This document shows, one piece after another, positions 216 to 31,026 of a stretch of DNA of 32,295 bases. The translations under genes and the position numbers were made by a program. How positions within the stretch are numbered: the stretch's first letter is position 1; each line of letters opens with the position of its first letter. The notes under the pieces are model-generated. The model did no database searches. It saw only the letters and a program-made list of their open reading frames with translations, and had not been told where the DNA came from. The DNA comes from an uncultured Candidatus Saccharibacteria bacterium (GTDB lineage Bacteria; Patescibacteriota; Minisyncoccia; Minisyncoccales; PWPS01): contig CAZKZM010000068.1 in assembly GCA_964557305.1 (NCBI GenBank), positions 1 to 32,295 of the forward strand, in the 5' to 3' direction.

Positions 216-818
216 ATGATTTACGATATTACACAAGAAGAAGTAGATAGAATTTTAAATGAAAAGGGAGACGTTAGAGGAGTTGTTTTTAAAACGGACT
301 ACTTGTTTGTTTTGAATAGATTTGGAGAAGAAGGAGTTAAAAAAGTAGAAGAAGAGATGAAGAGGATGGGGTGTCCGTTTGATTATGAAAAACAAGCGAT
401 TAATATGAGTTTTTATCCTATCGGGATGAGAGTTATCTCGCTTATCGCGATAAGTAATGTTTTTAATTTTGGTAAAGAAGAGGTTGTTGAGATGGGGAGG
501 ACTGCTCCAAAATTTTCAATGATAGTAAAGTTTTTTATAGGATACTTTCTTTCCATTGAAAGTGTTTTTGAGAAAGCAGGGAGTATGTGGGAGAAACACT
601 ACACTGCGGGTTATCTTGAATCAGCAGAAATTAATGAAAAAGAACAGTATGTGATAATAAGGGTTCACGAAACCAATCTTCACCCTATTTTTTGTGATTA
701 TCTTTGCGGGTACTTCTCCTCAATTGTTAAAATGGCAACAGGAAAAGATATTCAAGCAGAAGAAAAAAAGTGCACTCACAAAGGAGATGATTATCATGAA
801 ATTATTTTAAAATGGTAG
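216..818 (+). CDS. V4R/DUF2378-like small-ligand-binding protein
   Basis: 200-aa ORF. The C-terminal pattern FCDYLCGYFSSIVKMATGKDIQAEEKKCTHKGDDYH fits the V4R signature C-x4-G...G...E-x2-C-x3-G. The stop overlaps the start of the next ORF (ATGGTAG). Confidence 0.5.
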   Translation: MIYDITQEEVDRILNEKGDVRGVVFKTDYLFVLNRFGEEGVKKVEEEMKRMGCPFDYEKQAINMSFYPIGMRVISLIAISNVFNFGKEEVVEMGRTAPKFSMIVKFFIGYFLSIESVFEKAGSMWEKHYTAGYLESAEINEKEQYVIIRVHETNLHPIFCDYLCGYFSSIVKMATGKDIQAEEKKCTHKGDDYHEIILKW

Positions 819-1372
819 ATGAAAAACAAAAAATAGAAACTCTTTTGCAGGATATGCAGTCACTTGAAGGATACATAAAGGATCTTTTTTCTTTTACACC
901 TACTCCTCTTTGTTTTGTAAGTCCGATAGGAGTTATTTTAGAAGTTAATCCTGCTTTTTCAAAGATTGTGAAATGCGAAGAAAACGAACCAATTGGTGAC
1001 AACCTATCTATTTTTGTTGATGAAAATTATCTGAAAGGTTTTTTAGAAAGAGCTATTAATGGAGAAGTAATTAACGGAGAAGAAACAGTCATTAAAAATA
1101 AAAAAGAAGAAGAGGTTCCGGTTCTTATCTTCGCAAAAGCAAGAAAAACTGAAGATCAAGAGATGGTAAACGGAGTTTTTATCTCTTTTTTTGACTTAAC
1201 AGAGATAAAAAAGAAAGAAGAAGAGGCCGAAAAAAGCAAAAAGAAACTTGAAGAAAAAGTAGAAGAGATGGAAAAATTTAACAAACTTGTTGTTGGAAGA
1301 GAGATAAAAATGACGGAACTCAAAGAAAGAATAAGAGAACTTGAAGAAAAAATTGGAAAGATGAGGCAGTAA
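812..1372 (+). CDS. PAS-domain protein with C-terminal coiled-coil GRE-motif tail and no output domain
   Basis: 186 aa. PAS-like core (PLCFVSPIGVILEVNPAFSKIVKCEENEPIG...GVFISFFDLTEIKKKEEE). The tail is EKFNKLVVGREIKMTELKERIRELEEKI. It is translationally coupled to 216-818. Confidence 0.75.
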   Translation: MVDEKQKIETLLQDMQSLEGYIKDLFSFTPTPLCFVSPIGVILEVNPAFSKIVKCEENEPIGDNLSIFVDENYLKGFLERAINGEVINGEETVIKNKKEEEVPVLIFAKARKTEDQEMVNGVFISFFDLTEIKKKEEEAEKSKKKLEEKVEEMEKFNKLVVGREIKMTELKERIRELEEKIGKMRQ

Positions 1373-1948
1373 AAATAAAAAGCAGAGGCCGGGTTCTCTG
1401 CTTTTTTTTGTTTGTTTTTGCCAATCTTTCCTGAAGATGCTCATAAAGATCTCATCAACATACTGTCCCTCCTTGAAGAAACTTTCTTTAAAGACACCTT
1501 CAACTTGAAATCCACACTTCTGATAGCACTTCTTTGCCCTTTCGTTGAAAGCGAGAACAGACAAAGTAATTTTTCTGAGATTAAGCGAAAGAAAAGCGTA
1601 CTCAGTAATTTTTTTTATCGCTTCCGTTCCGTACCCGTTTCCGCGATATTTTCTTTCGCCGATGAAGATTCCAAGGTTTGCTTTTCTTGCAACGAAGTTT
1701 ATCTGGTGAAGACCGATGTTTCCGATAAGAACTTTTTCCTCTGATGATTCTATCCCAAGAACAACATCAGAGGATTTTCTTTTTCCAAGATCTTCAACCC
1801 AACTCTCTTCGTCTAAAGTGTTCATCGGAAGATAAAGAGAGAGGTATCTTGTTGTTCTTTCGTCGTTTGTCCACTCAACGAGTTTCGGAACATCACTCTT
1901 CTCAAGAGGCCTCAGATTGATTTTATCGCCTTTCCTAAAGATTGTCAT
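1196..1948 (-). CDS. GNAT family N-acetyltransferase (RimJ/RimL-like) with an anomalous 73-codon read-through tail
   Basis: The first 177 aa or so look like a complete GNAT domain (IGNIGLHQINFVARKANLGIFIGERKYRGNGYGTEA...AFNERAKKCYQKCGF). No stop follows the domain, and the ORF runs through the terminator hairpin into the antisense of 812-1372. Confidence 0.75.
   Translation of the reverse strand: MTIFRKGDKINLRPLEKSDVPKLVEWTNDERTTRYLSLYLPMNTLDEESWVEDLGKRKSSDVVLGIESSEEKVLIGNIGLHQINFVARKANLGIFIGERKYRGNGYGTEAIKKITEYAFLSLNLRKITLSVLAFNERAKKCYQKCGFQVEGVFKESFFKEGQYVDEIFMSIFRKDWQKQTKKSREPGLCFLFLLPHLSNFFFKFSYSFFEFRHFYLSSNNKFVKFFHLFYFFFKFLFAFFGLFFFLFYLC
1381..1409. terminator. Bidirectional rho-independent terminator
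   Basis: Stem agcagag / ctctgct with loop gccgggtt, an A-run upstream and T8 downstream. It lies directly after the TAA at 1370-1372. Confidence 0.7.
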
Positions 1949-2338
1949 AGCAAATTCTCCTTGCTTTATGGTTTAAAGAGCTTTGCTAAACAAAAACCCG
2001 GCTTCTGTTTAGCCGGAGAATTACATTTTTTATTTTTAGATTTCGTTTTAATATAACACTTCGGCAAAACACAAATAATTAAAAGCTGATGCGTTGACAG
2101 GAATGTAAAAATTTCCTGATGTACTCATCAAGCACTTATCTGTGTTCATAAGTTGTGCTATATTAAAATTAAACATAACTTATTATAACAAGCAAAAAAA
2201 TAATGTCAATACCATCCCTGTTAGTTGTCATATTTTTGACATTGTTCGGGTTTTGTTGTATATTTAAGGTCATGGGATAAGTCACTGCTCGCAAGAGGAT
2301 GTATCTGGCGAGCTTTTTATTTGAATAACAATAATTAT

Positions 2339-3529: not shown

Positions 3530-3595
3530 AAAACAAAATTGCTTTTTTGTGTTTTGTGATATAATAAGTTATTCTTAAAAGTAATAAATTAAAAA

Positions 3596-4126: not shown

Positions 4127-4140
4127 GTTAATAATAAAAT

Positions 4141-5904: not shown

Positions 5905-5906
5905 TT

Positions 5907-6527: not shown

Positions 6528-6566
6528 AAAATGCCACAAGTATTAACTTGTGGCATTTTGTTTTTC
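6525..6566. terminator. Bidirectional terminator between convergent genes
   Basis: 11-bp stem atgccacaagt / acttgtggcat (6531-6541 and 6546-6556), loop atta, flanked by A6 and a T-rich run. Confidence 0.8.
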
Positions 6567-6574
6567 TATCTTTA

Positions 6575-7567
6575 CTATTTTTCTTTGTATCTTTCTATCT
6601 CTTCTTTTAGATTTCTAATCTCTTCTTTTAACTCTATCATTCTGTTTTCTCTTCCCATCGTTAGGCGGTGGAACTTTTCAAGCTCAGTCACTCTGTTTTG
6701 CAACTCTTTTGTCCTTTCTTGAATCTTTCCCTCCAATCCTTTATTTAACTCTTCAAGTTCTTTTGTTCTTTCTTGGACTTTTATTTCAAGGGATTTTTTT
6801 GTTTCTTGAAGTTCAGATTCTGACTTTTTAAGAACTTTGTTCTGCTCTTTAACACGAGTATAGTTGCTTTTAAGATCTCCCGCCAACTTGTTTAAGGTTT
6901 TTGCTAAGGTTCCTATCTCATCTTTTGTTGGAACTTCAATCCGATGATCAAGATCTCCCTTTCCCATAATCTCAGCACCATCAGACACCTTCTTTAAAGG
7001 ATTAAGAACAATAATTTTTATAATCCAAAAAGAAGCGAAGATGTCCCCAAAAAGAAGTAGTGCTCCAAGAATCCATATTAGTTTAATCTGGACATCTAAA
7101 AACTCTTGATACTTTTTGTCAGAAAGATAAAACTTTACCTCTCCTAATCTTCTTGGTTCTTGGTCAATTGGTTTGTAGATAACAGTGGAAGTAAAAACAT
7201 CACCGCACTTAGTGCAATTGGAGATGTCTTCTCTTTTTTCTTCATCTACTGTGTCAGAAACATAATCAGCAACAATTTTATCTTTGTGATAAATTTCTAT
7301 TGCCAGTATCTGATCAGAATCTTGCCTTCCGACATAATTAACAGAAAGCTGAAGTGCTGGATAGTTGTATGAAAGAAGATCTTCAATGCAAAAATCAGAA
7401 AGCGCAGCTGCCATTGAGTTTCCGTATGTTTCTACTTGACTTTGGATTATGTCTCCAGTTTGACTGATCTGAAGATATAAAGCAATGACAAGAAAAAATA
7501 AAACTTCTATTCCAACCGCTCCAAGCAGTTTCACCTTCAATGAAAAAGGCTTTTTTAATGGTTTCAT
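6575..7567 (-). CDS. Membrane sensor: TM, extracytoplasmic domain, TM, HAMP, then coiled-coil GRE-motif tail with no output domain
   Basis: 330 aa. HAMP segment NPLKKVSDGAEIMGKGDLDHRIEVPTKDEIGTLAKTLNKLAGDL. Duplicated V/I-QERTKEL heptads are followed by LEKFHRLTMGRENRMIELKEEIRNLKEEI at the C-terminus. Confidence 0.8.
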   Translation of the reverse strand: MKPLKKPFSLKVKLLGAVGIEVLFFLVIALYLQISQTGDIIQSQVETYGNSMAAALSDFCIEDLLSYNYPALQLSVNYVGRQDSDQILAIEIYHKDKIVADYVSDTVDEEKREDISNCTKCGDVFTSTVIYKPIDQEPRRLGEVKFYLSDKKYQEFLDVQIKLIWILGALLLFGDIFASFWIIKIIVLNPLKKVSDGAEIMGKGDLDHRIEVPTKDEIGTLAKTLNKLAGDLKSNYTRVKEQNKVLKKSESELQETKKSLEIKVQERTKELEELNKGLEGKIQERTKELQNRVTELEKFHRLTMGRENRMIELKEEIRNLKEEIERYKEK

Positions 7568-7579
7568 TTTTCTTTTTTA

Positions 7580-8617
7580 TTACTTTCCCCAAGCGTCAAG
7601 ATCGTAAAAAACTTCTCCGTGAACACGATCAATTGCTTCTTTTACTGGGAGATAATCTTCAATGCTAACTGCAACGAATTTGTTATAGCCAGCATCAACT
7701 CTTTCGTGAATAAGAGGATCAACTTCGTAAGAAGCAAGAATAGCACTTCTTACCTCTTCTATCTGTTCATCAGAAAGTACGCTTCTGTTAGCTAAAATTG
7801 GAAACTCTGGAACAGGGGCATGACGCCAGATTGATCTTATCTCAGCTCCGTCTTCAACAAACTTTCCCATTGTTTGTTCGTTAACAAAAGCAGCGTCAAC
7901 ATTACCTCTTATGAGGTTTTCTAATGCTTTGTCATGAGATCCAAGATAATTTAATCCACCATCTGCAAAAAAGGTTGTAGCGTCTATTCCTTCTTCAAGA
8001 AGCATTCCTTCCGGCATCAAACCTCCTGATGTTGAAGAGATACTTGTTCCGGCAACTTTTTTTCCTTCAAGATCCCAAACACTTTGATATGGTGAATTTT
8101 CAAGAACAACAAGATCTCCTTGGTATGTTGGAGATCCGGTGTATCTTTCTCCACAAGCGATAACTTCCATATCATCTTCAATATTACCGTAGGCCTGTAT
8201 TGTAGTGACAGGAGCTAAAAAAACGAGCCCAACCTCTCCTTCTACAAAATCTTTTACTACTGCGGTGTATCCTCCAAGTTCACCTTCAGTAGGGTAGAAC
8301 TTCATCTCTATATTAAGATCAGTGGATTCGTTCAGGTAATTTTCAAGAGCCCCAAAGCGATTAAGCATTTCAGATGGGTTTTGAAGAGGGAGAACACCCA
8401 TATAGACTACTTCCTCTTCTTCGTCTTCTCCTTCTTCTTCAGCTGGGGTAATAGGTGCTATTGGCTTGACTGGCTCTTCTTTAACAACAAAAAAGACCAA
8501 AGCTGCGATCAAAATTATAATCGCTAAAACAACAACCCCTCCGAGAATAAACTTTTTGGGATCTTGCTTTGACTCTTCTTCATATTCGTAATTATTAATT
8601 GTGTTTTCTTCTTCCAT
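7580..8617 (-). CDS. Membrane-anchored PhnD-like (phosphonate-type) substrate-binding protein
   Basis: N-terminal TM anchor, acidic linker (EEEGEDEEEE), then a PhnD/PF12974-like fold (YMGVLPLQNPSEMLNRFGALENYL...GEVGLVFLAPV). It ends 12 nt upstream of the HAMP sensor gene. No ABC permease or ATPase genes are nearby. Confidence 0.7.
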   Translation of the reverse strand: MEEENTINNYEYEEESKQDPKKFILGGVVVLAIIILIAALVFFVVKEEPVKPIAPITPAEEEGEDEEEEVVYMGVLPLQNPSEMLNRFGALENYLNESTDLNIEMKFYPTEGELGGYTAVVKDFVEGEVGLVFLAPVTTIQAYGNIEDDMEVIACGERYTGSPTYQGDLVVLENSPYQSVWDLEGKKVAGTSISSTSGGLMPEGMLLEEGIDATTFFADGGLNYLGSHDKALENLIRGNVDAAFVNEQTMGKFVEDGAEIRSIWRHAPVPEFPILANRSVLSDEQIEEVRSAILASYEVDPLIHERVDAGYNKFVAVSIEDYLPVKEAIDRVHGEVFYDLDAWGK

Positions 8618-8760: not shown

Positions 8761-10050
8761 GTGGACAAGAGCAAGATAAAAAAAATAACAGTTGTTTTTC
8801 TGGTAGCAATTTTTTTAATTACTGCTATCTTTGCTTTTTTTATTTTTTATTTTGAAACTTTAACTCCGCCAGTTCATATTTCCGCAGAGCCATTATCTTA
8901 TAGTGAAATACTTGTTTCTTGGGAAGAAGACGAAAAAAGCAAACATTATAATGTTTACAGATCAACAGATCAAGATAGTTCTTATCTTAAAATAGGAAAC
9001 ACAAAAAAAGGAGAGTATATAGACAAAGATCTTAGTCCGAGTACGGCTTATTACTACAAGGTGACAAAAGTTATTGATTATGAAGAGAGTGAGTTTAGTT
9101 CAAGAGCAACTGCATTTACAAAACCGATGATGCCAACAGGATTAGAAGCATCTTCTGAAGATTTTCAAGAGACGATGCGCCTTCAGGTTAATTTGAGTTG
9201 GAACTACTCTTTTGTTGCTGACAGATATAATATTTACAGATCTCTTCAAAAAGAAGGGCCTTATGAAAAAATAGAAGAAGCAAGCATTGAAAGTTATTCT
9301 GACAATAATATTGAGCCAGAAACGACTTACTATTATACGATTACACAGGTTGCAAATAACACCGAAAGCGTTTATAGTGATGTTGTAGAAGTTTTAACAT
9401 CTGAAGAGTGGCTTTGTGGTGATGTTATTAGTTATGGAGGAAAAGATTATGAAACAGCAATAATCGGATCAAGGTGCTGGTTTAAAGAAAACTTAAATAT
9501 TAGTGAAAAGGATGTTGATTACAACTGCACGGTTGAAAAAAACTGCTACTGGAATAAAGAAGAAAATTGTGATACTTACGGAGGACTTTATGACTTTTCT
9601 TCTGCTTCGTGCAATGAAAAGAAAGAAGGAACAAGAGGAATCTGTCCCACTGGATGGCGAATTCCTACTGATGATGACTGGTCTGATCTTGAAGTTGCAG
9701 CAGGAATGAGTGAAGAAGAAACAGAAAAGTACGGATATCGTGGAGACAACGAGGCCAGTAAAATTTCTAATGGATATGACTTGTGGCTTCCGGGAGAACT
9801 GAGAGAAGATGAAGATTTCTCGTCTCTTTCTTTTAATATTTTTCCGGGAGGATATGCAACTTGGCGAGCGGATGGAGGAGGAGAAACAGTTTTTCTGTGG
9901 TCATCAACTTCGTCAAATGAAGATCCTGACTGTGGACTTAGAGAAGATGGGTATAGAATAAGAATAATAGATTATAATAATAAGAAGATAAAATTAAGTT
10001 GCTTTGCAGAGGACAATATGGCTTATGTTCGCTGTGTAAGACCTTTATAA
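8761..10050 (+). CDS. Membrane-anchored surface protein: 2x fibronectin type III plus a FISUMP (Fibrobacter succinogenes major paralogous, TIGR02145-like) domain
   Basis: GTG start and a TM anchor. FN3 signatures YNVYRS...YYYKVT and YNIYRS...YYYTIT. The Cys-rich C-terminus is CWFKENLN...YGGLYDF...CPTGWRIPTDDDWSDLE. Confidence 0.8.
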   Translation: MDKSKIKKITVVFLVAIFLITAIFAFFIFYFETLTPPVHISAEPLSYSEILVSWEEDEKSKHYNVYRSTDQDSSYLKIGNTKKGEYIDKDLSPSTAYYYKVTKVIDYEESEFSSRATAFTKPMMPTGLEASSEDFQETMRLQVNLSWNYSFVADRYNIYRSLQKEGPYEKIEEASIESYSDNNIEPETTYYYTITQVANNTESVYSDVVEVLTSEEWLCGDVISYGGKDYETAIIGSRCWFKENLNISEKDVDYNCTVEKNCYWNKEENCDTYGGLYDFSSASCNEKKEGTRGICPTGWRIPTDDDWSDLEVAAGMSEEETEKYGYRGDNEASKISNGYDLWLPGELREDEDFSSLSFNIFPGGYATWRADGGGETVFLWSSTSSNEDPDCGLREDGYRIRIIDYNNKKIKLSCFAEDNMAYVRCVRPL

Positions 10051-10051
10051 T

Positions 10052-22480: not shown

Positions 22481-22487
22481 TAAAATT

Positions 22488-23536: not shown

Positions 23537-26500
23537 ATGATTTCAAAAATTGAAAAAAGAAACGGAGAAGTTGTAGATTTTGATGTTCAAAAAATTGAAA
23601 GCGCAGCATATAAAGCGCTTACTTTTACGAAAAAGGGGGACAAAGATGAAGCGAGAGTTATTTCTGATAAAGTTTTAGAGGTTCTTCTTCAAAGATTTAG
23701 CAGGGAAGAAGTCCCTACCGTTGAAGATATTCAAAACATCGTTGAAGAGGTCTTAATAATGGAAGGATTTACAGACACTGCTCGTAGTTATATTCTTTAC
23801 CGGGAAAAAAGAAGAGAAGTGAGGGATGCGATGACACAGTTAGAAGATTCAAGTGAAATTATTGAAAAATACATAGATGAGATTGACTGGGAAGTGAAAG
23901 AAAACGCGAATATGACATACTCTCTTCAAGGACTAAATCAACACGCAACCTCTCATATTTCAAAAAAATACTGGCTTAACAAGATTTATCCTTACGAGAT
24001 AAGAGAAGCAGCAAAAAATCAGGATTTTCATATTCACGACCTAAATCTGCTCGCTACTTACTGTTGCGGGTGGGATCTGCAAGATCTTCTTCTCCGAGGA
24101 TTTGGAGGAGTTCCATCAAAAATAGAATCAAAACCACCAAAACATTTTCGTCCAGCGCTGGGACAGATTGTAAACTTTTTCTTTACTCTTCAAGGAGAAA
24201 GTGCAGGTGCACAGGCGATGAGCAACTTTGACACTTTCCTTGCTCCTTTCATCAGATACGATAATTTGGACTACAAACAAGTAAAACAGTCCTTACAAGA
24301 GTTTTTGTTCAACTGCATGGTCCCAACCCGCGTAGGATTTCAATGTCTCTCGGAAGATACTGAGATTTTAACTAAAGATGGGTGGAAAAAACACAACGAA
24401 GTGAAACAAGGAGATGTTATAAAAACATTTAATACTGAAGAAAAAATAATTCAAGAAAAACAAGTAAAAAAAGTATTTTCAAAAGAATATGAAGGAAAGA
24501 TGTACTCTGTTTCAAACAGAATTCAAGATCAGTTAATCTCTCCTCATCACAGAATGGTGAGAAAGAAGTTTAACAGTGAAAGATATGTACTTGAAGAAGT
24601 TGAAGAAGTGTTAAAACTTAAAACACCACAAACGATTCCGATAGCTGCTGACAATAAAAACAAAGCAATTGATATTACCAACGAAGAGATAAAGTTGGTT
24701 GCTTGGATTGTCTCTGAAGGAAGTATGGAGTCAAAAGTTAACTGGAGAAGAATAGTAATTTATCAATCAGAAAAGAAAAACAAAGAAAAGTACGAAGAAA
24801 TTCTTGCTCTTTTAGAAATTCTTGGAATTAAATACACAACACAAGAAGGATCAAAATCCCTTGGCGATGTTGTGATGCAGATAAGATTTAACTCTGAAGA
24901 AACACAAAAGATATTAGATCTTTTTGACACGAAAGATAGTGTGAAAAAAATCCCATCAAGGTTCTTAGAGATGAGTCAGAAACAAAGCAGGGTTTTCTTG
25001 GAAACATACATCAAAGGAGATGGTCACGAGGGATCAAAGATTACCGTTTCTGATAAAGAAACTTTGAGAGATCTTCAAAGAATAATAGTTAACTCTGGAT
25101 ATGGATTTACAACTTCTAAAAGAAAGTCATCGGGTGTAGGGAAGAAGATGCTTTATATTATTAGAGTTATTCGTCATCAAGAAACACACATCACTAAAAT
25201 AAAAGAAGTTGATTACAAAGGATTTATATGGTCTGTTAATACTGACAACGAAACAGTTATTGCAAAAAGAAAAGGAAAGGTTTTCATAACAGGGAACACG
25301 CCTTTTCTAAATGTTTCGTTGGATGTTAAGATTCCTGAGTTTTTGAGAAACCAACCGATTATTATTGGTGGTGAAGCGAAGAGAGAAACATATGGAGAGT
25401 TTCAGAAAGAAGTTGATATTTTCAACAAAGCTTTTTACGAGTGCTTAATGGAAGGAGATTCAAAAGGAAGAGTTTTCACTTTTCCAATTCCAACAATTTC
25501 TATTGCCAAAGATTTTGATTGGGACAACAAAGCTCTTGATCCGATGTGGGAAGCAACCGCAAAGTACGGAATAAATTATTTTTCAAACTTTATTCAGTCC
25601 GATATGAACCCCGAGGATTTTAGAAGTATGTGTCCACTTGACAGAAACGAAAAGGTCTTAATCAGATCAAAAAGAGGAAGAGGATTAGAGTATTCTAGTA
25701 TAGGATTTATCTGTGAAGGACGCGCTAAAGAAAACGAATATGAAGTTTATAGTGATGGAAAGTTTATAAAAGGAAGATTCAACAAGTTCCCTAATCAGAA
25801 GATGATGTTGGTGGTTTTGAAAAATGGACACAAGATTAAGATGAGTGAAAATCACCTGAACTATGTGATGAAAGATTCTAAAAGTGCCATTGAAACATTA
25901 AAAGGAAAGGATCTTAAAGAAGGATTTTATCTTCCCTACTCTTTAAATGTTTACGAAGGAGAAGGAGGAAACAAGGATTTAGGGTATTTTGTTGGTGCTT
26001 TTGCCGGTGATGGTTCCTTTGATGGAGATGGAAGCGTTGTATTTTCATTAGAGCAAGAAAGAAAAAAAGAGATAATATCAAAAATAATAAAAATATCAGA
26101 AAAATATTTTGGAGCTCATTACTCAACCAAAAAAGACCCTAAAACGAAATTATTTACATTAAAAATTCATTCACGAGCGGCTGTTGGCTTGTGTAAAGAT
26201 TTTATTGCCAATAAAAAAAGAGAAAAACATTACAAAGCAAGGATTTTTGGAACAAGTGTAGAGTTTAGAAAAGGAGTGCTGAAGGGTCACTATGAGACCG
26301 ATGGCGGAAATAAAAACAGAACATATACTTCATCTAAGAGAATGGTTGAAAGTATAAATATGCTTAATGCTACATTGGGAAAAACGACAAGCATATACAA
26401 AGACGACAGAGAGGGAAGATTGGGAAGTGAGCCAAATTATGCAGTTAGAGCGTATAGTTTTGCCAATAAAAAATATGGAGATATCTGGTTCAAGAAGAAA

Positions 26501-27493
26501 GAAAAAGTATGGGTTCAGATAAAGTTAATAAAAAAGATCAATAAAATTAGTGTGGCATACTGTTTTGAAGTAGAAAATGGAGAGCCCGTTTTTACAGTTG
26601 GAACAACAGGAATCCTTACGCACAACTGCCGACTTAGGTTGGATAACAAGGAGTTGATAAAGAGAGGGGGAGGGCTTTTTGGCTCACAACCACTTACTGG
26701 TTCAATTGGTGTTTGTACAATTAACTTGCCACGAATAGGATATTTGTCAAAAACAAAAGATGAGTTTTATAGTAGATTAGGAGCGGTGATGGATCTTGCA
26801 AAAGAAAGCTTAGAGATAAAAAGAAAGGCCGTAGATAACTTTATTGAAAAAGGACTATATCCTTATTCCAAACACTATCTTAATTCTGTGAAAAAGATGC
26901 GTGGCTCTTATTTTGGAAATCACTTTTCAACAATCGGTCTTATCGGAATGAACGAATCGCTTTTAAATTTTATGGGAGAAGGGACTGGTTCTGAAGAAGG
27001 AAGAAAGTTTGCAGTAGAAATTCTTGACTTTATGCGTGACCGACTTGTTGAGTATCAAGAAAAAACAGGAAATCTATACAACTTAGAAGCAACTCCGGGA
27101 GAAGGGTGTTCTTACCGCCAAGCGAGTATAGACCGAGGAAGATACCCAGATATTATAACAGCAGGAACAAAAGAAAATCCGTACTACACAAACTCTATTC
27201 ACCTTCCGGTTGGATACACTGATGATCCGTTTGAAGCACTTGATCTTCAAGATGAACTGCAACAAAAATTTACTGGAGGAACGGTGTTTCACTTGTTCTT
27301 GGGAGAGAGAATGGCTACTGCTGAAAGCGCAAAAGGTCTTGTAAAAAAGGTATTAAACAACTATCATTTACCATACATAACAATAACACCTACTTTTTCT
27401 GTTTGTCCTAACTGTGGATACTTAAAAGGAGAGCAGTTCTACTGCCCTAATTGCAAAATAAAAGGTCCAAAGAAGATTATAAAAAATATTTAA
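23537..27493 (+). CDS. nrdD: Anaerobic (class III) ribonucleoside-triphosphate reductase with an ATP-cone and two inteins, lacking the glycyl-radical loop
   Basis: ATP-cone at the N-terminus. Extein motifs are GFQ/TPFLNVSLD, RSM/CRLRLD, NLEATPGEG, GGTVFHLFLGE and LPYITITPTFSVCPNCGYLKGEQFYCPNC. The ORF stops 12 codons after the second CxxC, before any RxxGY loop. Confidence 0.93.
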   Translation: MISKIEKRNGEVVDFDVQKIESAAYKALTFTKKGDKDEARVISDKVLEVLLQRFSREEVPTVEDIQNIVEEVLIMEGFTDTARSYILYREKRREVRDAMTQLEDSSEIIEKYIDEIDWEVKENANMTYSLQGLNQHATSHISKKYWLNKIYPYEIREAAKNQDFHIHDLNLLATYCCGWDLQDLLLRGFGGVPSKIESKPPKHFRPALGQIVNFFFTLQGESAGAQAMSNFDTFLAPFIRYDNLDYKQVKQSLQEFLFNCMVPTRVGFQCLSEDTEILTKDGWKKHNEVKQGDVIKTFNTEEKIIQEKQVKKVFSKEYEGKMYSVSNRIQDQLISPHHRMVRKKFNSERYVLEEVEEVLKLKTPQTIPIAADNKNKAIDITNEEIKLVAWIVSEGSMESKVNWRRIVIYQSEKKNKEKYEEILALLEILGIKYTTQEGSKSLGDVVMQIRFNSEETQKILDLFDTKDSVKKIPSRFLEMSQKQSRVFLETYIKGDGHEGSKITVSDKETLRDLQRIIVNSGYGFTTSKRKSSGVGKKMLYIIRVIRHQETHITKIKEVDYKGFIWSVNTDNETVIAKRKGKVFITGNTPFLNVSLDVKIPEFLRNQPIIIGGEAKRETYGEFQKEVDIFNKAFYECLMEGDSKGRVFTFPIPTISIAKDFDWDNKALDPMWEATAKYGINYFSNFIQSDMNPEDFRSMCPLDRNEKVLIRSKRGRGLEYSSIGFICEGRAKENEYEVYSDGKFIKGRFNKFPNQKMMLVVLKNGHKIKMSENHLNYVMKDSKSAIETLKGKDLKEGFYLPYSLNVYEGEGGNKDLGYFVGAFAGDGSFDGDGSVVFSLEQERKKEIISKIIKISEKYFGAHYSTKKDPKTKLFTLKIHSRAAVGLCKDFIANKKREKHYKARIFGTSVEFRKGVLKGHYETDGGNKNRTYTSSKRMVESINMLNATLGKTTSIYKDDREGRLGSEPNYAVRAYSFANKKYGDIWFKKKEKVWVQIKLIKKINKISVAYCFEVENGEPVFTVGTTGILTHNCRLRLDNKELIKRGGGLFGSQPLTGSIGVCTINLPRIGYLSKTKDEFYSRLGAVMDLAKESLEIKRKAVDNFIEKGLYPYSKHYLNSVKKMRGSYFGNHFSTIGLIGMNESLLNFMGEGTGSEEGRKFAVEILDFMRDRLVEYQEKTGNLYNLEATPGEGCSYRQASIDRGRYPDIITAGTKENPYYTNSIHLPVGYTDDPFEALDLQDELQQKFTGGTVFHLFLGERMATAESAKGLVKKVLNNYHLPYITITPTFSVCPNCGYLKGEQFYCPNCKIKGPKKIIKNI
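24344..25297 (+). mobile_element. Intein 1 (318 aa) with a LAGLIDADG homing-endonuclease domain
   Basis: It starts CLSEDTEILTKDG. Block B is LISPHHRM. LAGLIDADG-like motifs are KLVAWIVSEGSM and FLETYIKGDGHEG. It ends VFITGN with Thr at +1, and splits the conserved GFQ-TPF extein motif. Confidence 0.85.
25631..26626 (+). mobile_element. Intein 2 (332 aa) with a LAGLIDADG homing-endonuclease domain
   Basis: It starts CPLDRNEKVLIRS. Block B is MSENHLN. LAGLIDADG motifs are LGYFVGAFAGDGSF and VLKGHYETDGG. It ends GILTHN with Cys at +1 (CRLRLD). Confidence 0.9.
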
Positions 27494-27503
27494 CAAAAAA
27501 AAT

Positions 27504-27812
27504 ATGAGTAAAAATATATTTTCTACAAAAAAACAAGCAGTTGAGGCAAGAAAGTGTTTTGATTGTGGGTGTGACATAAAGATTGAAGATAAAGACATTA
27601 AAAATGGAGTTCTCTTAGAGTATGAAGATAACGACGAGCAACTTTTTGCGATGAAGTGTGACGATTGTTACAAAAAAAACGAAGGAATCTCTAATTACAA
27701 AAAGTGCGAAGTTTACTCAAGAATAGTAGGATATCTCCGTCCAGTTCAAAACTATAATCCAGGCAAAAAACAAGAGTACGAAGAAAGAAAGGAATACACT
27801 GCAAAGGTGTAA
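27504..27812 (+). CDS. Stand-alone NrdD C-terminal module: Cys4 ribbon plus glycyl-radical loop
   Basis: 102 aa with CFDCG...CDDC, then EVYSRIVGYLRPVQNYNPGKKQEYEERKEY, the class III RNR glycyl-radical signature. It starts 10 nt after the nrdD stop, in a different frame. Confidence 0.85.
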   Translation: MSKNIFSTKKQAVEARKCFDCGCDIKIEDKDIKNGVLLEYEDNDEQLFAMKCDDCYKKNEGISNYKKCEVYSRIVGYLRPVQNYNPGKKQEYEERKEYTAKV

Positions 27813-27817
27813 ATACA

Positions 27818-27852
27818 CCCCATTTTTACACCCCAGGGGTGTAAAAATGGGG
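27818..27852. repeat. Palindromic repeat, copy 3 (CCCCATTTTTACACCCC-A-GGGGTGTAAAAATGGGG)
   Basis: Perfect 17-bp arms around nt 27835, starting 6 nt after the stop at 27810-27812. Confidence 0.9.
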
Positions 27853-27906
27853 TGTAAAAAACCATTCGGAGCAGGGTTATACTCCGGCGGGAATCTCCGT
27901 GAATTT

Positions 27907-28097
27907 AATTTCAAATTTCAAATTTCAATTGAATAACCAAATGAACAAATGACTAAATCCCTTAAAAAGAATCTTCGATTCTTTACGGGACAAGTCTTAA
28001 AACAACTCACGCATAGCTTTGTGATTATGTGTTTTAAAATTTAAACATTTAGAAATTTGAAATTGATTTGAAATTTGAAATTTGAAATTTGAAATTC
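27907..28097. repeat. Inverted heptamer arrays (aatttca x3 vs gaaattt x6) flanking a roughly 120-nt core
   Basis: The left array is at 27907-27928 and the right array at 28051-28097, reverse-complementary to each other. An inner 8-bp hairpin aaagaatc-ttc-gattcttt is at 27966-27984. Confidence 0.85.
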
Positions 28098-28192
28098 TTG
28101 CAAGATTTCCACTGGAATTTTACACTGTTTCGAATGGTGTGGGGTGGGAATGATAGAGTATTACTATCTATTAGTGTAAAAATATTTATTTT

Positions 28193-28891
28193 ATGAAAAT
28201 TGGTGGATTACAAAAACTAACGCTTATTGACTATCCGGGGCAAGTTGCTTGCACTGTTTTTCTTGCTGGTTGTAATTTTCGTTGTCCGTGGTGTTACTCG
28301 GCAGAGCTTGTTTTGCCCGAAAAAATTGAAAATCAAGCAGAAGTAGAAGAAAAAGAATTTTTCAGATTTTTAGAAAGAAGAAAAAACACTCTTGATGGCG
28401 TTGTTATTTGTGGAGGAGAAGCAACAACAAACGCTTCGCTTCCTGAGTTTATAAGAAAGATAAAAGAAAAAGGATTTAAAGTAAAACTTGATACCAACGG
28501 CTCTAATCCACAAATGTTAATTCATCTTCTTGAAGAAAAGTTACTGGATTATATTGCGATGGATGTTAAAAATAGCTTTGATAAGTATAGTCAGACGGTG
28601 GGAGTTGATTGTGATGTTGAAAAGATAAAAAAAAGCATTGATGTTATAAAAAACTCAGAAGTTGATTACGAGTTCAGAACAACAGTGGTTCCAGGAATTC
28701 ATGAAGAAGAAGACATTGAAAAGATAGGAGAAGCATTAAAAGGAGCAGAAAAGTATTTTTTACAAAATTTTCTTCCTGAAAAAACAATTAACGGAGGATT
28801 CATAGAAAAAACACCATTTTCCAAAGAGAAGCTTGAAAAGTTAAAAGAAAAAGCAGCTCCTTTTGTGAAAAAATGTGAGACAAGAGGATAA
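28193..28891 (+). CDS. nrdG: Anaerobic ribonucleotide reductase activating protein (radical SAM)
   Basis: CNFRCPWC cluster motif near the N-terminus, GGEAT, and a length and layout typical of the NrdG2 type. Confidence 0.9.
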   Translation: MKIGGLQKLTLIDYPGQVACTVFLAGCNFRCPWCYSAELVLPEKIENQAEVEEKEFFRFLERRKNTLDGVVICGGEATTNASLPEFIRKIKEKGFKVKLDTNGSNPQMLIHLLEEKLLDYIAMDVKNSFDKYSQTVGVDCDVEKIKKSIDVIKNSEVDYEFRTTVVPGIHEEEDIEKIGEALKGAEKYFLQNFLPEKTINGGFIEKTPFSKEKLEKLKEKAAPFVKKCETRG

Positions 28892-28909
28892 AGACACCTT
28901 TTCTTTTTT

Positions 28910-28940
28910 GTGCCGACTTTTCAGTCGGCACTTTTGTTTT
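28910..28940 (+). terminator. Rho-independent terminator after nrdG
   Basis: Stem gtgccgac / gtcggcac with loop ttttca, followed by ttttgtttt. Confidence 0.8.
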
Positions 28941-28995
28941 GACTTTTATTTTATTTGTTTTATTATTAAGTAATATCAATATAATTTTTTTATAT

Positions 28996-29664
28996 ATGAA
29001 GATTTTATTTGTTTCTTACTCAAGAACAGGAAATACTCAAAAAACAACGGAGAAAATAAAAAAAGAGTTAAAAGAACGAGGACACGAAGTAGTTACAGAA
29101 AAAATTAAATTAAAAAAAGAGCTTGAATCAAGGTGGTTAGTTCTTTTTGATATAAAAGTGACACTTAGTTACTTTTTGGGGCTTGCCTTGAGAAAAGACA
29201 TTTTACCCAGAAGAGAAATTGAGCCAGTTTCTTTTCCAAACATATCACAGTTTGACAGAGTTTGTATAACAACTCCCAAGTGGGGCAGTGTTCCTCCACA
29301 GATATGTAAATATATTGATATTGTTGAAGGATTGGAAGGAAAAAAAGTTGCTGTTTTTTCCTCTTACTACTGTCCTCCCTATAAATACATTGAGTTGAAG
29401 GCGATTTTTGGACCGTTAAAGAAAATGATAAGCAAAAAACAAGGAGAAGTGACTGTAATGATGGGTGCGACTACCGATTTTCTTGAAAGAGGAATTAAAT
29501 CGTTTAAAGCAGTAATATGGATTCTTAATCTGGTCAGGTTTGGAAAGCCATTTCCAAAAGATTGGCGAGACAGATCACCATACTTTATATCAGAAAAGTT
29601 TAAACCAGTAGCTCCTTACAAGGAAGAAGCGATCAAGTTGTTTTGTGATAAAATTGAAAATTAA
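28996..29664 (+). CDS. Flavodoxin-like fold protein
   Basis: MKILFVSYSRTGNTQKTTEKIKKEL is an FMN-loop-like N-terminus, and ITTPKWGSVPP is a second loop. ATG at 28996 is preferred over the upstream alternative start at 28939. Confidence 0.65.
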   Translation: MKILFVSYSRTGNTQKTTEKIKKELKERGHEVVTEKIKLKKELESRWLVLFDIKVTLSYFLGLALRKDILPRREIEPVSFPNISQFDRVCITTPKWGSVPPQICKYIDIVEGLEGKKVAVFSSYYCPPYKYIELKAIFGPLKKMISKKQGEVTVMMGATTDFLERGIKSFKAVIWILNLVRFGKPFPKDWRDRSPYFISEKFKPVAPYKEEAIKLFCDKIEN

Positions 29665-29676
29665 AAAAAATAAAAG

Positions 29677-31026
29677 ATGAAAATTTTAGTTGCTTACTAC
29701 TCCCGTACAAAAGGAACAGAAAAATTAGCAGATGTTTTGATTAAAAAAATTAGAGATTCAGGACATTCTGTTGATGTTGAAAAAATAAAACCACAAAAAG
29801 AACACAGTTGGTTTTTTTGGTTTTTTATTAGAATCTTTAAAGGAAGTTGCAAGATTAAACCCTTGAAAATTAAAACAGCAGAAGATTATGATCTGGTTTT
29901 AGTTGGAAGTCCTAACTGGACGCGAGTTTCCTTGCCAGTGGGAGGATATATCAAAGAAGTGAAAGGAATAAGATACAGAAATGTTGCGCTTTTTTCTACT
30001 ACTTTTGCTCCTCCTGCTCTTGAGTGGTATATTCTTTCAGCATACTTGCTTGATCTGAGTTTTGCGAAGATGGTTGAGAGAAAACACGGGAGAGTGGTTG
30101 ATTATCTTATTCTTTCAAGTTTTTTTAAAAAATGGAGTTTTGAATCTGATTATGGAGAGAATATGATCAGTGATTTTTGTAAAAAAATTACTTCTCCGAT
30201 AACTTCTTTTAAAAAATACTTTTTAAGACAAAAAGAAGTTGACAATCTTCGCTTTTTAGCGGTCTTAACCTCATTTTTCTTTTTTTCAAGTATTTTTGCA
30301 GTAGCTTTTTTGAAAGTTATTAATATTGACATTTCTTGGGAAGATTACCTTTGGATCGGGATTGTTCTTTTCTTAACTTTTATTCTTTTAACCCTTGTTC
30401 GGGACAACAAAAGATTTTTCTTTTTAGCAAAATATATTCCAAGCGTTTCGTTTGTTTTTCTTTGGACAATGCTTGTTTCTCACTTTGCATTAGATTTAGG
30501 GACGGGGCGTTTAATGATATTAGGATATATTTTTATTTTCGTTCTTTTTTCTTCTTTTCGTGACGAAAAAGTGGTTGCTTTTTCAGGAGCGTTTACTCTT
30601 TTGTCGTATGTTTTTTTGTTTTATTTTTCGCTAGAAAAACAAGTTTTTAATTTGTTTTTAGATATGTCTTTGATATTTGCCAGTTGTGTTCTCTTTATTA
30701 TCTTTACCAACACTTTTCGTGAGTATTACCTGACTTTATTAAACTCTCAAGATGAAGTTGAAAAATCACGAAAAGGATTAGAAGAAAAAGTTAAAATAAA
30801 AACAAAAGAGTTGAAAGAGCTGAACGAAAACCTAGAAAAAGAAGTTGAAAAAAGAACTGAAAAAATAAAAGAGCAGAGCACTGACTTAGAAAAGAAAGTA
30901 AACCACTTAGAAAAGTTCAACAAACTAACGATTGGAAGAGAGAACCGAATGAAAGAATTAAAAGAAGAGATAGAAACACTAAAAAAAGAAAAACAAGAGT
31001 TGGAAGAAAAGTTAAATGAAAAATAA
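29677..31026 (+). CDS. Fusion protein: flavodoxin-like domain, about 6 TM helices, then coiled-coil GRE-motif tail
   Basis: The N-terminus MKILVAYYSRTKGTEKLADVLIKKI...LVGSPNWTRVSLP is paralogous to 28996-29664. The middle 190 aa or so are hydrophobic. The tail is LEEKVKIKTKELKELNENLEKEVEKRTEKI...LEKFNKLTIGRENRMKELKEEIETLKKE. Confidence 0.75.
   Translation: MKILVAYYSRTKGTEKLADVLIKKIRDSGHSVDVEKIKPQKEHSWFFWFFIRIFKGSCKIKPLKIKTAEDYDLVLVGSPNWTRVSLPVGGYIKEVKGIRYRNVALFSTTFAPPALEWYILSAYLLDLSFAKMVERKHGRVVDYLILSSFFKKWSFESDYGENMISDFCKKITSPITSFKKYFLRQKEVDNLRFLAVLTSFFFFSSIFAVAFLKVINIDISWEDYLWIGIVLFLTFILLTLVRDNKRFFFLAKYIPSVSFVFLWTMLVSHFALDLGTGRLMILGYIFIFVLFSSFRDEKVVAFSGAFTLLSYVFLFYFSLEKQVFNLFLDMSLIFASCVLFIIFTNTFREYYLTLLNSQDEVEKSRKGLEEKVKIKTKELKELNENLEKEVEKRTEKIKEQSTDLEKKVNHLEKFNKLTIGRENRMKELKEEIETLKKEKQELEEKLNEK

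What the first reader, a model, noticed from the sequence alone, without database searches (positions are those of the whole stretch)
812..31026. Three output-less sensor proteins share one C-terminal coiled-coil module (LEKF-x-x-L-x-x-GRE-x-x-M-x-ELK-x-x-I)
Three tails align column for column. 812-1372 reads MEKFNKLVVGREIKMTELKERIRELEEKI (nt about 1268-1354). 6575-7567 reads LEKFHRLTMGRENRMIELKEEIRNLKEEI (nt about 6575-6685, minus strand). 29677-31026 reads LEKFNKLTIGRENRMKELKEEIETLKKE (nt about 30904-30972). In the latter two the tail is preceded by two L-E-x-K-V-x-x-R/K-T-K/E-E-L heptad units. All three proteins stop within 8-20 residues of the motif. None has a DHp/HATPase, GGDEF, EAL, HD-GYP, MCP or HTH domain. 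The inputs differ: PAS, an extracytoplasmic domain plus HAMP, and a flavodoxin-like domain plus 6 TM. From memory, GRE-x-R-M-x-ELK segments occur as internal linkers in multi-PAS histidine kinases. Here the segment is the terminus, so it looks like a common docking or output interface for an unidentified partner. That would be a modular signalling system without a canonical transmitter in a reduced genome.
Basis: partly seen in the sequence, partly recalled or inferred. Interest (0 to 1): 0.85.

Follow-up and report, generated by a model that had tools for sequence, protein, structure and literature searches.

The report
Shared end-helix of kinase-less bacterial sensors
Three sensor proteins in this small-genome bacterium end in the same conserved 40-residue helix, a motif found at the very end of thousands of input-only sensors across bacteria and archaea whose next gene usually encodes the missing kinase or phosphodiesterase, so it probably marks the sensor half of split signalling systems.

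Summary
Three ORFs (812-1372 +, 6575-7567 -, 29677-31026 +) end in (L/M)EKFxxLxxGRExxMxELKExI. No output domain is detectable in any of them. The motif is far beyond generic K/E heptads: G-R-E and E-L-K are invariant, and E, F, M, I and L are 84-97% conserved at fixed positions.

The motif is not modelled in Pfam, NCBIfam or the PDB. It is nevertheless huge: 15,410 clusters at 50% identity, spanning Patescibacteria, DPANN, Nitrospirota, Methanosarcinales, Planctomycetota, Actinobacteria and Proteobacteria. In about 90 genome-encoded cases the stop codon lies 9-47 residues after ELK, even in proteins of 1,000-1,388 aa. These proteins carry only input domains.

The gene immediately downstream is usually co-oriented and tightly coupled, and it encodes a canonical transmitter: HATPase_c in 27 of 82, HD-GYP in 8, then REC, FIST and CheB/CheR. 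In Patescibacteria the tails sit in a cassette: membrane sensor-tail, V4R-like proteins, PAS-tail, PAS-histidine kinase, two receivers. The window keeps the sensors and the V4R-like gene but has no kinase within 32 kb.

Best reading: an S-helix-derived terminal coiled coil that marks sensor subunits of split two-component-type systems. Docking through the tail itself is inferred, not shown.

The parts
812..1372 (+). P1: PAS sensor with N-cap helix and a single long C-terminal helix that ends in the tail (186 aa)
   Evidence: Translation. PAS_9/PAS/TIGR00229. AF2 gives pLDDT 88.9 with helix 4-28, PAS core 33-128 and helix 130-185. The 43 homologues are all 149-225 aa with PAS only.
1268..1333 (+). 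Tail motif of P1: MEKFNKLVVGREIKMTELKERI
   Evidence: Regex hits and alignment A1/A2.
216..818 (+). V4R-like ~200-aa protein that overlaps P1 by 7 nt; a recurrent cassette partner of tail-bearing sensors in Patescibacteria
   Evidence: Weak V4R hit at 7e-4 and no NCBIfam model. Homologues at 27-46% identity lie next to tail genes in L007, L009, L010, L012, L027, L036, L040, L053 and L063. L090 has four tandem copies.
6575..7567 (-). P2: TM, extracytoplasmic domain, TM, HAMP, two S-helix ERT units, tail (330 aa)
   Evidence: Identical in 4 assemblies. 89% orthologue in the Ca. Paceibacterota MAG L005, which also ends after the tail.
6869..7009 (-). HAMP domain of P2 (residues 187-233)
   Evidence: Pfam HAMP at 47.8 bits against a cutoff of 25.
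6701..6772 (-). Two S-helix 'ERT' units (QERTKEL twice) preceding the tail of P2
   Evidence: ERT signature as defined in PMC1592074.
6617..6682 (-). Tail motif of P2: LEKFHRLTMGRENRMIELKEEI
7580..8617 (-). PhnD-like periplasmic binding protein, 13 nt upstream of P2 in the same operon; likely ligand-binding partner of P2's extracytoplasmic domain
   Evidence: Phosphonate-bd at 1e-44. The pair is conserved in L005, L073 and L087-L088.
29677..31026 (+). P3: flavodoxin-like N-domain, six TM segments, S-helix units, tail (449 aa)
   Evidence: Full-length orthologues in L007 (47%) and L036 (44%) end in the tail and are followed by V4R-like genes. Its TM and coil region is 35% identical to the N-terminus of a fused TM-LNILED-PAS-HK in L073.
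30907..30972 (+). Tail motif of P3: LEKFNKLTIGRENRMKELKEEI
28939..29664 (+). Flavodoxin-like paralogue of P3's N-domain, lacking TM segments and tail, immediately upstream of P3
   Evidence: BLASTP 29% identity over 155 aa, E 6e-15. Weak flavodoxin hits.

Best explanation
The shared tail is a conserved terminal coiled-coil module of about 40 residues. Its consensus is (ERTKEL)-x2-(K/R)-(V/I)-x-E-L-E-(K/R)-F-x-(R/K)-L-(T/A)-V-G-R-E-L-(K/R)-M-(I/V)-E-L-K-x-E-I-x-x-L. It continues the S-helix (signalling helix) that leaves a PAS, HAMP, GAF or transmembrane sensor. Instead of leading into a transmitter domain, it ends the polypeptide.

It defines a very large, so far unmodelled class of input-only sensor subunits. 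These subunits most likely work in trans with a separately encoded transmitter, usually the next gene. That gene is a soluble or membrane histidine kinase, an HD-GYP phosphodiesterase, a receiver or a FIST protein.

In Patescibacteria the arrangement is a cassette: membrane sensor-tail, then one to four V4R-like proteins, then PAS-tail and/or PAS-histidine kinase, then two receiver genes. The window holds three such sensor subunits plus the V4R-like gene, dispersed and without an adjacent kinase.

Shown:
- Conservation of the motif.
- Its strict terminal position.
- The input-only architecture of the proteins that carry it.
- The directional pairing with transmitter genes.
- The single long C-terminal helix of P1.

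Inferred:
- The tail forms a parallel dimeric coiled coil with a polar core, Arg at a core position flanked by Gly.
- This coil is what couples the sensor non-covalently to the partner, most plausibly to the partner's own signalling helix, which carries a conserved xSRxALxNxLED box.
For: Specificity:
- Among 239 unique tails, positions outside the search regex are strongly conserved: E(-8) 97%, F(-6) 92%, L(-9) 92%, E(-10) 90%, M(+5) 91%, L(+15) 93%, I(+12) 84%. ERTKEL sits at -21..-16 in about 60%.

Size and spread:
- 15,410 representative clusters at E<=1e-3 and 1,092 at E<=1e-10.
- At least 468 confirmed sites in species-representative genomes from many bacterial and archaeal phyla.

Terminal position:
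- 135 of 153 motif hits lie within 30 aa of the C-terminus among the best representatives.
- The stop lies 9-47 aa after ELK in all ~90 genome ORFs, including proteins of 980-1,388 aa.

Input-only architecture:
- Of 88 ORFs, PAS is in 50, HAMP 14, GAF 12, REC 8, dCache 6 and Amt 3, plus flavodoxin, MEDS and CHASE8.
- No HisKA, HATPase, GGDEF, EAL, HD or MCP is among the listed families.
- Multi-unit giants such as dCache-HAMP-PAS-motif-PocR-PAS-motif-END have no output either.

Pairing with transmitters:
- Most downstream ORFs are co-oriented, with -16 to +30 nt spacing.
- Pfam on the 82 downstream ORFs gives HATPase_c 27, HisKA 23, HD_5 8, REC 8, FIST 5 and CheB/CheR 2.
- The corresponding numbers for the 63 upstream ORFs are HATPase_c 6 and HisKA 5.
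- An LNxLED-type box occurs in 30 of 56 coupled downstream ORFs, 2 of 76 upstream ORFs and 0 of 88 tail proteins. Fisher p = 4e-12.

Relatives of the window organism:
- L090 has 4 V4R-like genes, PAS-tail, then a PAS-PAS-HisKA-HATPase gene at +3 nt, REC and REC.
- L007 and L010 have sensor-tail, V4R-like, PAS-tail, FIST and HK. L036, L040, L053 and L063 have sensor-tail, V4R-like, PAS-HK and two REC genes. L092 is similar.
- The same TM and S-helix module as in P3 is covalently fused to LNILED-PAS-HK in L073. This shows fused and split versions of one system.

Structure:
- AF2 on P1 gives pLDDT 88.9 with one uninterrupted helix at 130-185.
- The fold resembles dimeric FixL/LOV-HK PAS units and effector-less short LOV proteins.
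Against: - No direct evidence that the tail contacts anything. No complex prediction was possible with these tools, and a single-sequence model of a tandem-tail protein was uninformative.
- The partners are heterogeneous (HK, HD-GYP, FIST, REC, CheB/CheR). A single conserved docking site on them is therefore not obvious.
- The LNxLED box can occur in the same chain just before the tail (P0038 and P0120). It may be another element of the same helix type rather than a complementary partner.
- About half of the downstream genes are not signalling genes.
- In the window itself none of the three tail genes has a transmitter neighbour. No H-box, HD-GYP or LNxLED motif exists in any frame of the 32 kb.
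- The neighbourhood censuses use the 80 best loci only and are not corrected for phylogenetic relatedness.
Confidence: 0.55

Rival explanations
1. The tail is only a dimerisation or termination cap, a strong trigger-type coiled coil that holds the sensor dimer in register. Signal passes to partners through other surfaces, such as PAS-PAS heterodimerisation with the paralogous PAS1 of the kinase, or the V4R-like proteins acting as adaptors. On this view the tail is not a docking site.
For: - P1's PAS domain is homologous to PAS1 of the neighbouring PAS-kinases in relatives.
- V4R-like genes sit between sensor and kinase genes in nearly all Patescibacterial cassettes.
- Effector-less short LOV proteins with a C-terminal coiled coil are the closest solved analogues.
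- The partners are too heterogeneous for one docking site.
Against: - Invariant G-R-E and E-L-K, with a core Arg, across bacteria and archaea is more constraint than a generic zipper needs.
- Tandem tails and two-tail proteins exist, which suggests tail-tail or tail-helix bundling.
- The pairing with downstream LNxLED-box proteins is directional.
Confidence: 0.28
2. One reading: a transmitter-less modular signalling system in a reduced genome. The common tail docks onto an unidentified, non-canonical partner.
For: - No kinase, HD-GYP, GGDEF or receiver lies in the 32-kb window or in the 28-kb syntenic contig of a 61%-identical relative.
- The V4R-like and FIST neighbours are themselves of unknown output.
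Against: - Slightly more distant relatives have PAS-HK plus two REC genes directly after the PAS-tail gene.
- Across phyla the downstream gene is most often a canonical transmitter.
- 32 kb is a small part of a genome.
Confidence: 0.1
3. The conserved Glu-rich helix is a site of reversible modification, such as Glu methylation of the kind reported for the S-helix of RsbK by RsbM. It would then be an adaptation site rather than an interface.
For: - A methylatable S-helix is documented (PMC4574943, listed).
- CheB/CheR fusion kinases follow two of the large tail-bearing sensors, L061 and L065.
Against: - Only 2 of 82 neighbours are CheB/CheR.
- No methyltransferase is found in the Patescibacterial cassettes or in the window.
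- The motif does not match chemoreceptor methylation consensus (own knowledge).
Confidence: 0.04
4. Artefact: truncated or pseudogenised kinase genes, mis-assembly, or chance similarity of K/E-rich heptads.
For: - Some tail-only ORFs of 35-80 aa next to kinases look like remnants of decayed genes (L091, L092).
Against: - P2 is identical in four assemblies.
- 43 homologues of P1 keep the same length.
- The terminal position is kept in ~90 genome ORFs from many phyla.
- Shuffles give about 0 hits.
- Non-heptad positions are strongly conserved.
Confidence: 0.02

Closest known systems
S-helix / signalling helix (Anantharaman, Balaji & Aravind 2006, PMC1592074)
   Same: It is a heptad coiled coil leaving PAS, HAMP, GAF or TM sensors. 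The ERT signature, with Arg at a core position, sits directly upstream of the tail at fixed spacing: R of ERT is 21 residues before R of GRE. A polar residue in the core suggests a metastable switch-like coil.
   Different: [quoted passage not shown] This module ends the protein. It also has its own invariant signature (F-x2-L-x2-G-R-E-x2-M-x-E-L-K), which that paper does not describe and which no Pfam or NCBIfam model covers.
Short LOV proteins (PpSB1-LOV, PpSB2-LOV, PF5-LOV, W619_1): effector-less PAS proteins
   Same: The build is a PAS core plus an N-cap helix plus a C-terminal helix, with no effector domain. These proteins appear among the Foldseek matches of the P1 model.
   Different: P1 lacks the LOV flavin-Cys motif. 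Its C-terminal helix is much longer (56 residues) and carries the conserved tail. The tail also occurs on HAMP, GAF, TM, REC and Amt sensors, so it is not PAS-specific.
Canonical sensor histidine kinases with PAS/HAMP, S-helix and DHp
   Same: The sensor modules and helical exit are the same. In L073 the P3-type TM and S-helix module is fused to a PAS-HisKA-HATPase.
   Different: Here the polypeptide stops after the tail, and the HisKA-HATPase part, where present, is a separate gene. The tail shows no detectable similarity to HisKA (E<=1).
Sensor proteins that regulate a kinase in trans (own knowledge: stressosome RsbR/RsbS-RsbT, LuxP-LuxQ, accessory sensors of WalK)
   Same: The logic is the same: input-only proteins act on a separately encoded kinase, and the genes are clustered.
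   Different: There is no sequence relationship. Those systems use STAS, periplasmic-binding or TM contacts, not a conserved C-terminal coiled-coil box.

Membership tests
S-helix (signalling helix) | About 40-residue heptad coiled-coil segment with an ERT signature in the central heptad | tested here: met
   P2 has QERTKEL twice. P3 has the degenerate forms IKTKEL and KRTEKI. About 60% of 239 tails have RTKEL at -20..-16. P1 itself lacks ERT, but its homologues carry ERTK.
S-helix (signalling helix) | Located between two signalling domains | tested here: not met
   The tail ends the protein in all three window ORFs and in ~90 genome ORFs.
Sensor histidine kinase | HisKA/DHp with phospho-acceptor His, plus HATPase_c | tested here: not met
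   No hit even at E<=1 in Pfam or NCBIfam domain regions. No H-box in any frame of the window.
HAMP-containing transducer | HAMP domain after the second TM segment | tested here: met
   P2 only: PF00672 at 47.8 bits (cutoff 25), residues 187-233, after TM2 at about 160-185.
PAS sensor | PAS fold | tested here: met
   P1: PAS_9 at 30.1 bits (cutoff 27) and TIGR00229 at 34.4 (cutoff 22.9). The AF2 model shows a PAS core, and Foldseek gives probability 1.0 to many PAS structures.
Short LOV photoreceptors | Flavin-binding LOV core with the conserved adduct-forming Cys (GxNCRFLQ) | tested here: not met
   No NCRF-type motif in the P1 sequence. Sequence identity to LOV structures is 12-19%.
Flavodoxin | Full flavodoxin fold with an FMN-binding loop | tested here: inconclusive
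   P3 matches only the first ~40 residues of flavodoxin models, below the cut-offs (Flavodoxin_5 at 20 bits against 27).
Methyl-accepting chemotaxis protein / GGDEF / EAL / HD-GYP / HTH one-component regulators | The respective output domain | tested here: not met
   None detected in P1-P3 or among the listed families in 88 tail-bearing ORFs.
Proposed new class: tail-terminated input-only sensor subunits | The E-x-F-x2-L-x2-G-R-E-x2-M-x-E-L-K box within ~50 residues of the C-terminus, only input domains upstream, and a transmitter gene nearby | tested here: inconclusive
   The first two features are met for P1-P3. The third is met in relatives but not within this window.

The most novel reading that the evidence does not exclude
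The tail is a universal 'plug'. It would be a dedicated non-covalent coupling helix by which interchangeable input-only sensors dock onto the signalling helix of a shared transmitter, at its xSRxALxNxLED box. The sensors could be membrane, PAS, GAF or Amt types, and the transmitter a kinase or HD-GYP enzyme. Specificity would come from a buried Gly-Arg (tail) against Asn (partner) polar core. Several sensors could then converge on one kinase, and sensor and transmitter could be shuffled as separate genes. That would be a widespread, previously unrecognised way of wiring two-component-type signalling in bacteria and archaea, including the minimal genomes of CPR and DPANN.
Probability: 0.3. Interest if true: 0.8.

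Novelty: new variant of a known kind. Interest (0 to 1): 0.6.

Why it matters
If the reading is right, thousands of proteins now annotated as 'PAS domain S-box protein', 'HAMP domain-containing protein' or 'hypothetical' belong to one class. They would be sensor halves of split signalling systems, recognisable by one C-terminal box.

That would have four consequences:
- It would revise the rule that the signalling helix only links domains within one chain.
- It would give a handle for assigning orphan sensors to kinases or HD-GYP enzymes.
- It would offer a natural, compact docking module for engineering sensor-kinase pairs.
- It would show that CPR bacteria, thought to have little signalling, keep a conserved multi-sensor cassette (sensor-tail, V4R-like, PAS-tail, kinase, receivers).

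The module deserves a family model in Pfam or NCBIfam.

Tried and rejected
- **Named families.** Pfam and NCBIfam scans of the three proteins at E<=1 found no named family on the tail, only generic coiled-coil noise. There was also a weak match of the S-helix region to the linker of NosR-family REC-HD-GYP proteins.
- **Solved structures.** A profile search of PDB sequences gave only designed or generic coiled coils.
- **Word-index searches.** Searches with tail profiles return only fragments under 80 aa, so they are useless for an architecture census. Two of those short ORFs on long contigs look like remnants beside kinases or cassettes.
- **Literature.** Text searches for the motif strings GRELRM/GRELKM/GRENRM and LNILED found nothing relevant. 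Searches for split kinases or stand-alone sensors found no description of this module.
- **Degenerate HisKA helix.** GRELRM resembles SHELRTPL, but the spacing from the conserved Phe is off by one and there is no HMM similarity. I rejected this idea.
- **Tail and LNxLED as alternative endings.** I considered that they are alternative endings of the same position of the helix. I rejected the strict form because P0038 and P0120 carry both in series.
- **AF2 on a tandem-tail protein.** A single-sequence AF2 run on P0016, meant to see whether two tails pack together, gave pLDDT 63.6 and pTM 0.23. No contact information was returned, so it is inconclusive.
- **RNA genes.** tRNA and Rfam scans of the window were empty.

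Full report
**1.

- P1: 812-1372 +, 186 aa.
- P2: 6575-7567 -, 330 aa.
- P3: 29677-31026 +, 449 aa.

All three end in (L/M)EKFxxLxxGRExxMxELKExI followed by 12-18 further K/E-rich residues. A six-frame scan finds the motif in these three places and nowhere else in the window. Shuffled windows give 0.003 hits on average. Only 51 of 200,000 composition-matched shuffles of the tails recreate even the loose core.

Pfam and NCBIfam confirm the inputs:
- P1 has a PAS domain.
- P2 has two TM segments and a HAMP domain.
- P3 has a weak flavodoxin-like N-terminus and six TM segments.

They also confirm the absence of any transmitter or output domain. The 'L-E-x-K-V-x-x-R-T-K-E-L units' in P2 and P3 are S-helix units with the ERT signature (PMC1592074).

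The stops are real. P2 is identical in four independent metagenome assemblies. Its 89%-identical orthologue in a Candidatus Paceibacterota MAG (L005) ends the same way. The 43 homologues of P1 are all 149-225 aa and contain PAS only.

**2. The tail is a large, specific, unmodelled family with a strict position**

No Pfam, NCBIfam or PDB entry covers the tail. An exhaustive profile search against 1.84 billion cluster representatives found 15,410 clusters at E<=1e-3 and 1,092 at E<=1e-10. Of 153 motif hits in the best representatives, 135 lie within 30 residues of the C-terminus.

A scan of one genome per species found at least 468 confirmed sites. They come from:
- Patescibacteria.
- DPANN archaea.
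- Nitrospirota/Thermodesulfovibrionales.
- Planctomycetota.
- Methanosarcinales/Methanoperedens.
- Delta-, alpha-, beta- and gammaproteobacteria.
- Actinobacteria, Bacteroidota and others.

In the ~90 ORFs of the best 80 loci, the stop codon lies 9-47 residues after ELK without exception. This includes proteins of 980-1,388 aa.

Over 239 unique tails, positions not used to find them are strongly conserved: E(-8) 97%, F(-6) 92%, L(-9) 92%, E(-10) 90%, M(+5) 91%, L(+15) 93%, I(+12) 84%. ERTKEL precedes the box at fixed spacing in about 60%.

In the heptad register the Arg of G-R-E falls on a core position, 21 residues after the core Arg of ERT. One three-residue discontinuity lies in between. 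This is read from the sequence and is an inference.

**3. The carriers are input-only**

A Pfam census of 88 tail-bearing ORFs gave PAS (50), HAMP (14), GAF (12), REC (8), dCache (6) and ammonium transporter (3), plus flavodoxin, MEDS and CHASE8. There was no HisKA, HATPase_c, GGDEF, EAL, HD or MCP signal among the listed families.

Very large representatives have the form dCache-HAMP-PAS-[motif]-PocR-PAS-[motif]-END or REC-PAS-PAS-[motif]-CHASE-[motif]-END. Internal copies therefore separate sensor units, and the chain still ends in the tail. The first refutation criterion (orthologues continue into kinase or GGDEF domains) is also not met.

**4. The transmitter is usually the next gene**

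The ORF downstream of a tail gene is mostly co-oriented, with spacing of -16 to +30 nt and many ATGA-type overlaps.

| Pfam family | 82 downstream ORFs | 63 upstream ORFs |
|---|---|---|
| HATPase_c | 27 | 6 |
| HisKA | 23 | 5 |
| HD_5 / HD (HD-GYP) | 8 | not listed |
| REC | 8 | 5 |
| FIST | 5 | not listed |
| CheB/CheR | 2 | not listed |
| PilZ | 2 | not listed |

Individual partners fall into three types:
- Soluble coil-HisKA-HATPase kinases.
- PAS-HisKA-HATPase kinases.
- TM-PAS-PAS-HD-GYP enzymes.

These partners share a second conserved helix box, xSRxALxNxLED. It occurs as 21-residue repeats in the coil-kinases. It sits just before PAS2 in the Patescibacterial kinases and just before the HD-GYP domain in the Nitrospirota enzymes. 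The box is present in 30 of 56 tightly coupled downstream ORFs, 2 of 76 upstream ORFs and 0 of 88 tail proteins. Fisher p = 4e-12.

**5. The Patescibacterial cassette and where the window fits**

Relatives show a conserved gene order:
- a 5'-3' exonuclease gene;
- a membrane sensor-tail gene (HAMP type like P2, or flavodoxin-6TM type like P3);
- one to four V4R-like ~200-aa proteins (homologues of window ORF 216-818);
- then either a ~520-aa PAS-PAS-HisKA-HATPase gene, or PAS-tail (homologue of P1) followed by FIST and/or a kinase;
- then two receiver genes.

In L090, whose PAS-tail protein is 56% identical to P1, the kinase gene starts 3 nt after the PAS-tail stop.

The full-length PAS-kinases of L036, L040, L053 and L063 have no tail motif. 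After PAS1 they run ERTKxLE-x-SRxALxNILED into PAS2. The TM and S-helix part of P3 is 35% identical to the N-terminus of a fused TM-LNLLED-PAS-kinase in L073. That kinase gene in turn follows a P2-like SBP and sensor-tail pair. Fused and split versions of the same system therefore coexist, and the tail appears exactly where the chain is cut.

In the window, and in its closest syntenic relatives (L087-L089, 61% identity), the pieces are dispersed:
- DUF134, V4R-like and PAS-tail lie at one end.
- SBP and HAMP-tail lie 6 kb away on the other strand.
- The flavodoxin paralogue and the flavodoxin-6TM-tail gene lie at 29 kb, followed by a ComEC-like gene.

No kinase, receiver, HD-GYP or LNxLED box exists in any frame of the 32 kb.

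**6. Structure**

AlphaFold2 on P1, with 43 homologues, gives a confident model: pLDDT 88.9, N-cap helix 4-28, PAS core 33-128 and one uninterrupted helix 130-185. Foldseek places it with dimeric FixL PAS units, LOV-HK and the effector-less short LOV proteins. That is the geometry of a parallel PAS dimer whose C-terminal helices form a coiled coil. The dimer itself is inferred from those analogues and was not predicted here.

**7. Mechanism**

The best-supported account is that the tail is an S-helix-derived terminal coiled coil of input-only sensor subunits, and that these subunits signal in trans to a separately encoded transmitter.

I give about 0.9 to 'real, conserved, terminal module of input-only sensors'. 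I give about 0.6 to 'works with the adjacent transmitter', and about 0.3-0.35 to 'the tail itself is the docking surface'.

Three observations speak for docking:
- The constraint on G-R-E/E-L-K is far above what a zipper needs.
- Tandem-tail and two-tail proteins exist.
- The pairing with LNxLED-box partners is directional.

Three observations speak against it:
- The partners are heterogeneous.
- The LNxLED box can precede the tail in one chain (P0038, P0120).
- There is no interaction evidence at all.

The main rival is that the tail only clamps the dimer and the signal goes through PAS-PAS contacts or the V4R-like proteins.

**8. Comparison with what is known, and novelty**

The module works like, and is probably derived from, the S-helix. 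It fails one defining feature of that family, location between two signalling domains. It also has its own invariant signature. It is not a kinase, MCP, GGDEF, EAL or HD-GYP protein, and P1 is not a LOV protein.

I found no description of the box, of its terminal position or of its pairing with downstream transmitters. I looked in Pfam (2025), NCBIfam (2026), PDB sequences and the searchable literature. Absence from these sources is not proof that it is undescribed.

I rate it a new variant of a known kind.

**9. Limits**

- The neighbourhood statistics rest on the 80 best loci of one scan and are not phylogenetically corrected.
- The 15,410-cluster figure comes from a 46-position profile, and only the top 150 hits were inspected.
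- ORF starts in loci were taken as the first Met.
- No multimer modelling was possible.

Noticed in passing
window 216-818 (+); L090:5583-8007: A V4R-like ~200-aa family has no Pfam hit above cutoff and no NCBIfam model. It carries a conserved C-terminal C-x2-(K/R)-G-D-x-Y-H-E-(F/I)-x-I-x-W box. It occurs as 1-4 tandem copies between sensor-tail and kinase genes in Patescibacteria and a DPANN MAG. It may be a small-molecule-binding adaptor of the cassette.
   Followed up: partly
L046, L047, L055, L060, L062, L071, L077 (downstream ORFs); L018/L033/L066/L082 around residue 330: A conserved xSRxALxNxLED helix box marks the partner proteins. It forms perfect 21-residue repeats (2-6 copies) at the N-terminus of soluble histidine kinases, and occurs as a single copy just before HD-GYP or PAS2. 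Its first five positions (Q-R-A-T-L) resemble positions -5..-1 of the tail (Q/H/N-R/K-L-T/A-V), after which N-I-L-E-D replaces G-R-E-L-K. I found no literature on it.
   Followed up: partly
window 1196-1948 (-): The convergent GNAT acetyltransferase ORF lacks the stop codon present in an otherwise identical contig: L085 reads ...DWQK*, the window reads ...DWQKQTKK... It therefore runs on for 72 codons antisense through the tail-coding region of P1. This is probably a strain SNP, and the extension is F/L-rich shadow sequence.
   Followed up: partly
window 23537-27493 (+) and 27504-27812 (+): The anaerobic ribonucleotide reductase NrdD is 1,318 aa, with intein-type insertions (LAGLIDADG and intein splicing domains). 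A separate 102-aa ORF follows and matches the extreme C-terminus of NrdD (profile positions 510-562), overlapping the end of the main ORF's match. It could be a duplicated or spare glycyl-radical segment, or a split gene. The activase NrdG is at 28193-28891.
   Followed up: no
window 8761-10050 and 10052-11287 (+): Two tandem paralogous secreted proteins carry fn3 plus the Fibrobacter succinogenes major domain. They are also conserved next to the SBP/HAMP-tail pair in relatives (L087, L088).
   Followed up: no
window 31040-32295 (+) and 1-160 (+): Two ORFs run off the window ends, so the ORF listing does not list them. One is a ComEC/Rec2-like membrane protein directly downstream of P3. The other is the C-terminus of a DUF134-type putative DNA-binding protein upstream of the V4R-like gene. 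The DUF134, V4R-like, PAS-tail order is conserved in L087-L089.
   Followed up: partly
P0014, P0016 (representative proteins); P0013-P0020, P0054, P0151: Some proteins carry two tails, either in tandem and separated by a ~50-residue K-rich linker, or flanking a PocR-PAS or TM-CHASE-TM unit. Internal copies have the extension ELKxxVNxLxxxxGxxxxY. This suggests tail-tail bundling.
   Followed up: partly
L091:4001-4168; L092:3601-4153: Tail-only mini-ORFs of 35-80 aa sit on long contigs. One overlaps the start of a 1,541-aa hybrid kinase after a 1-kb gene-free gap. Others lie among fragments inside a Patescibacterial cassette. They are probably remnants of decayed sensor genes, but free tail peptides cannot be excluded.
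   Followed up: partly
window 30747-31046 (-): A 99-aa F/S/L-rich ORF lies antisense to the K/E-rich tail-coding region of P3. It is a shadow ORF, not a gene.
   Followed up: no
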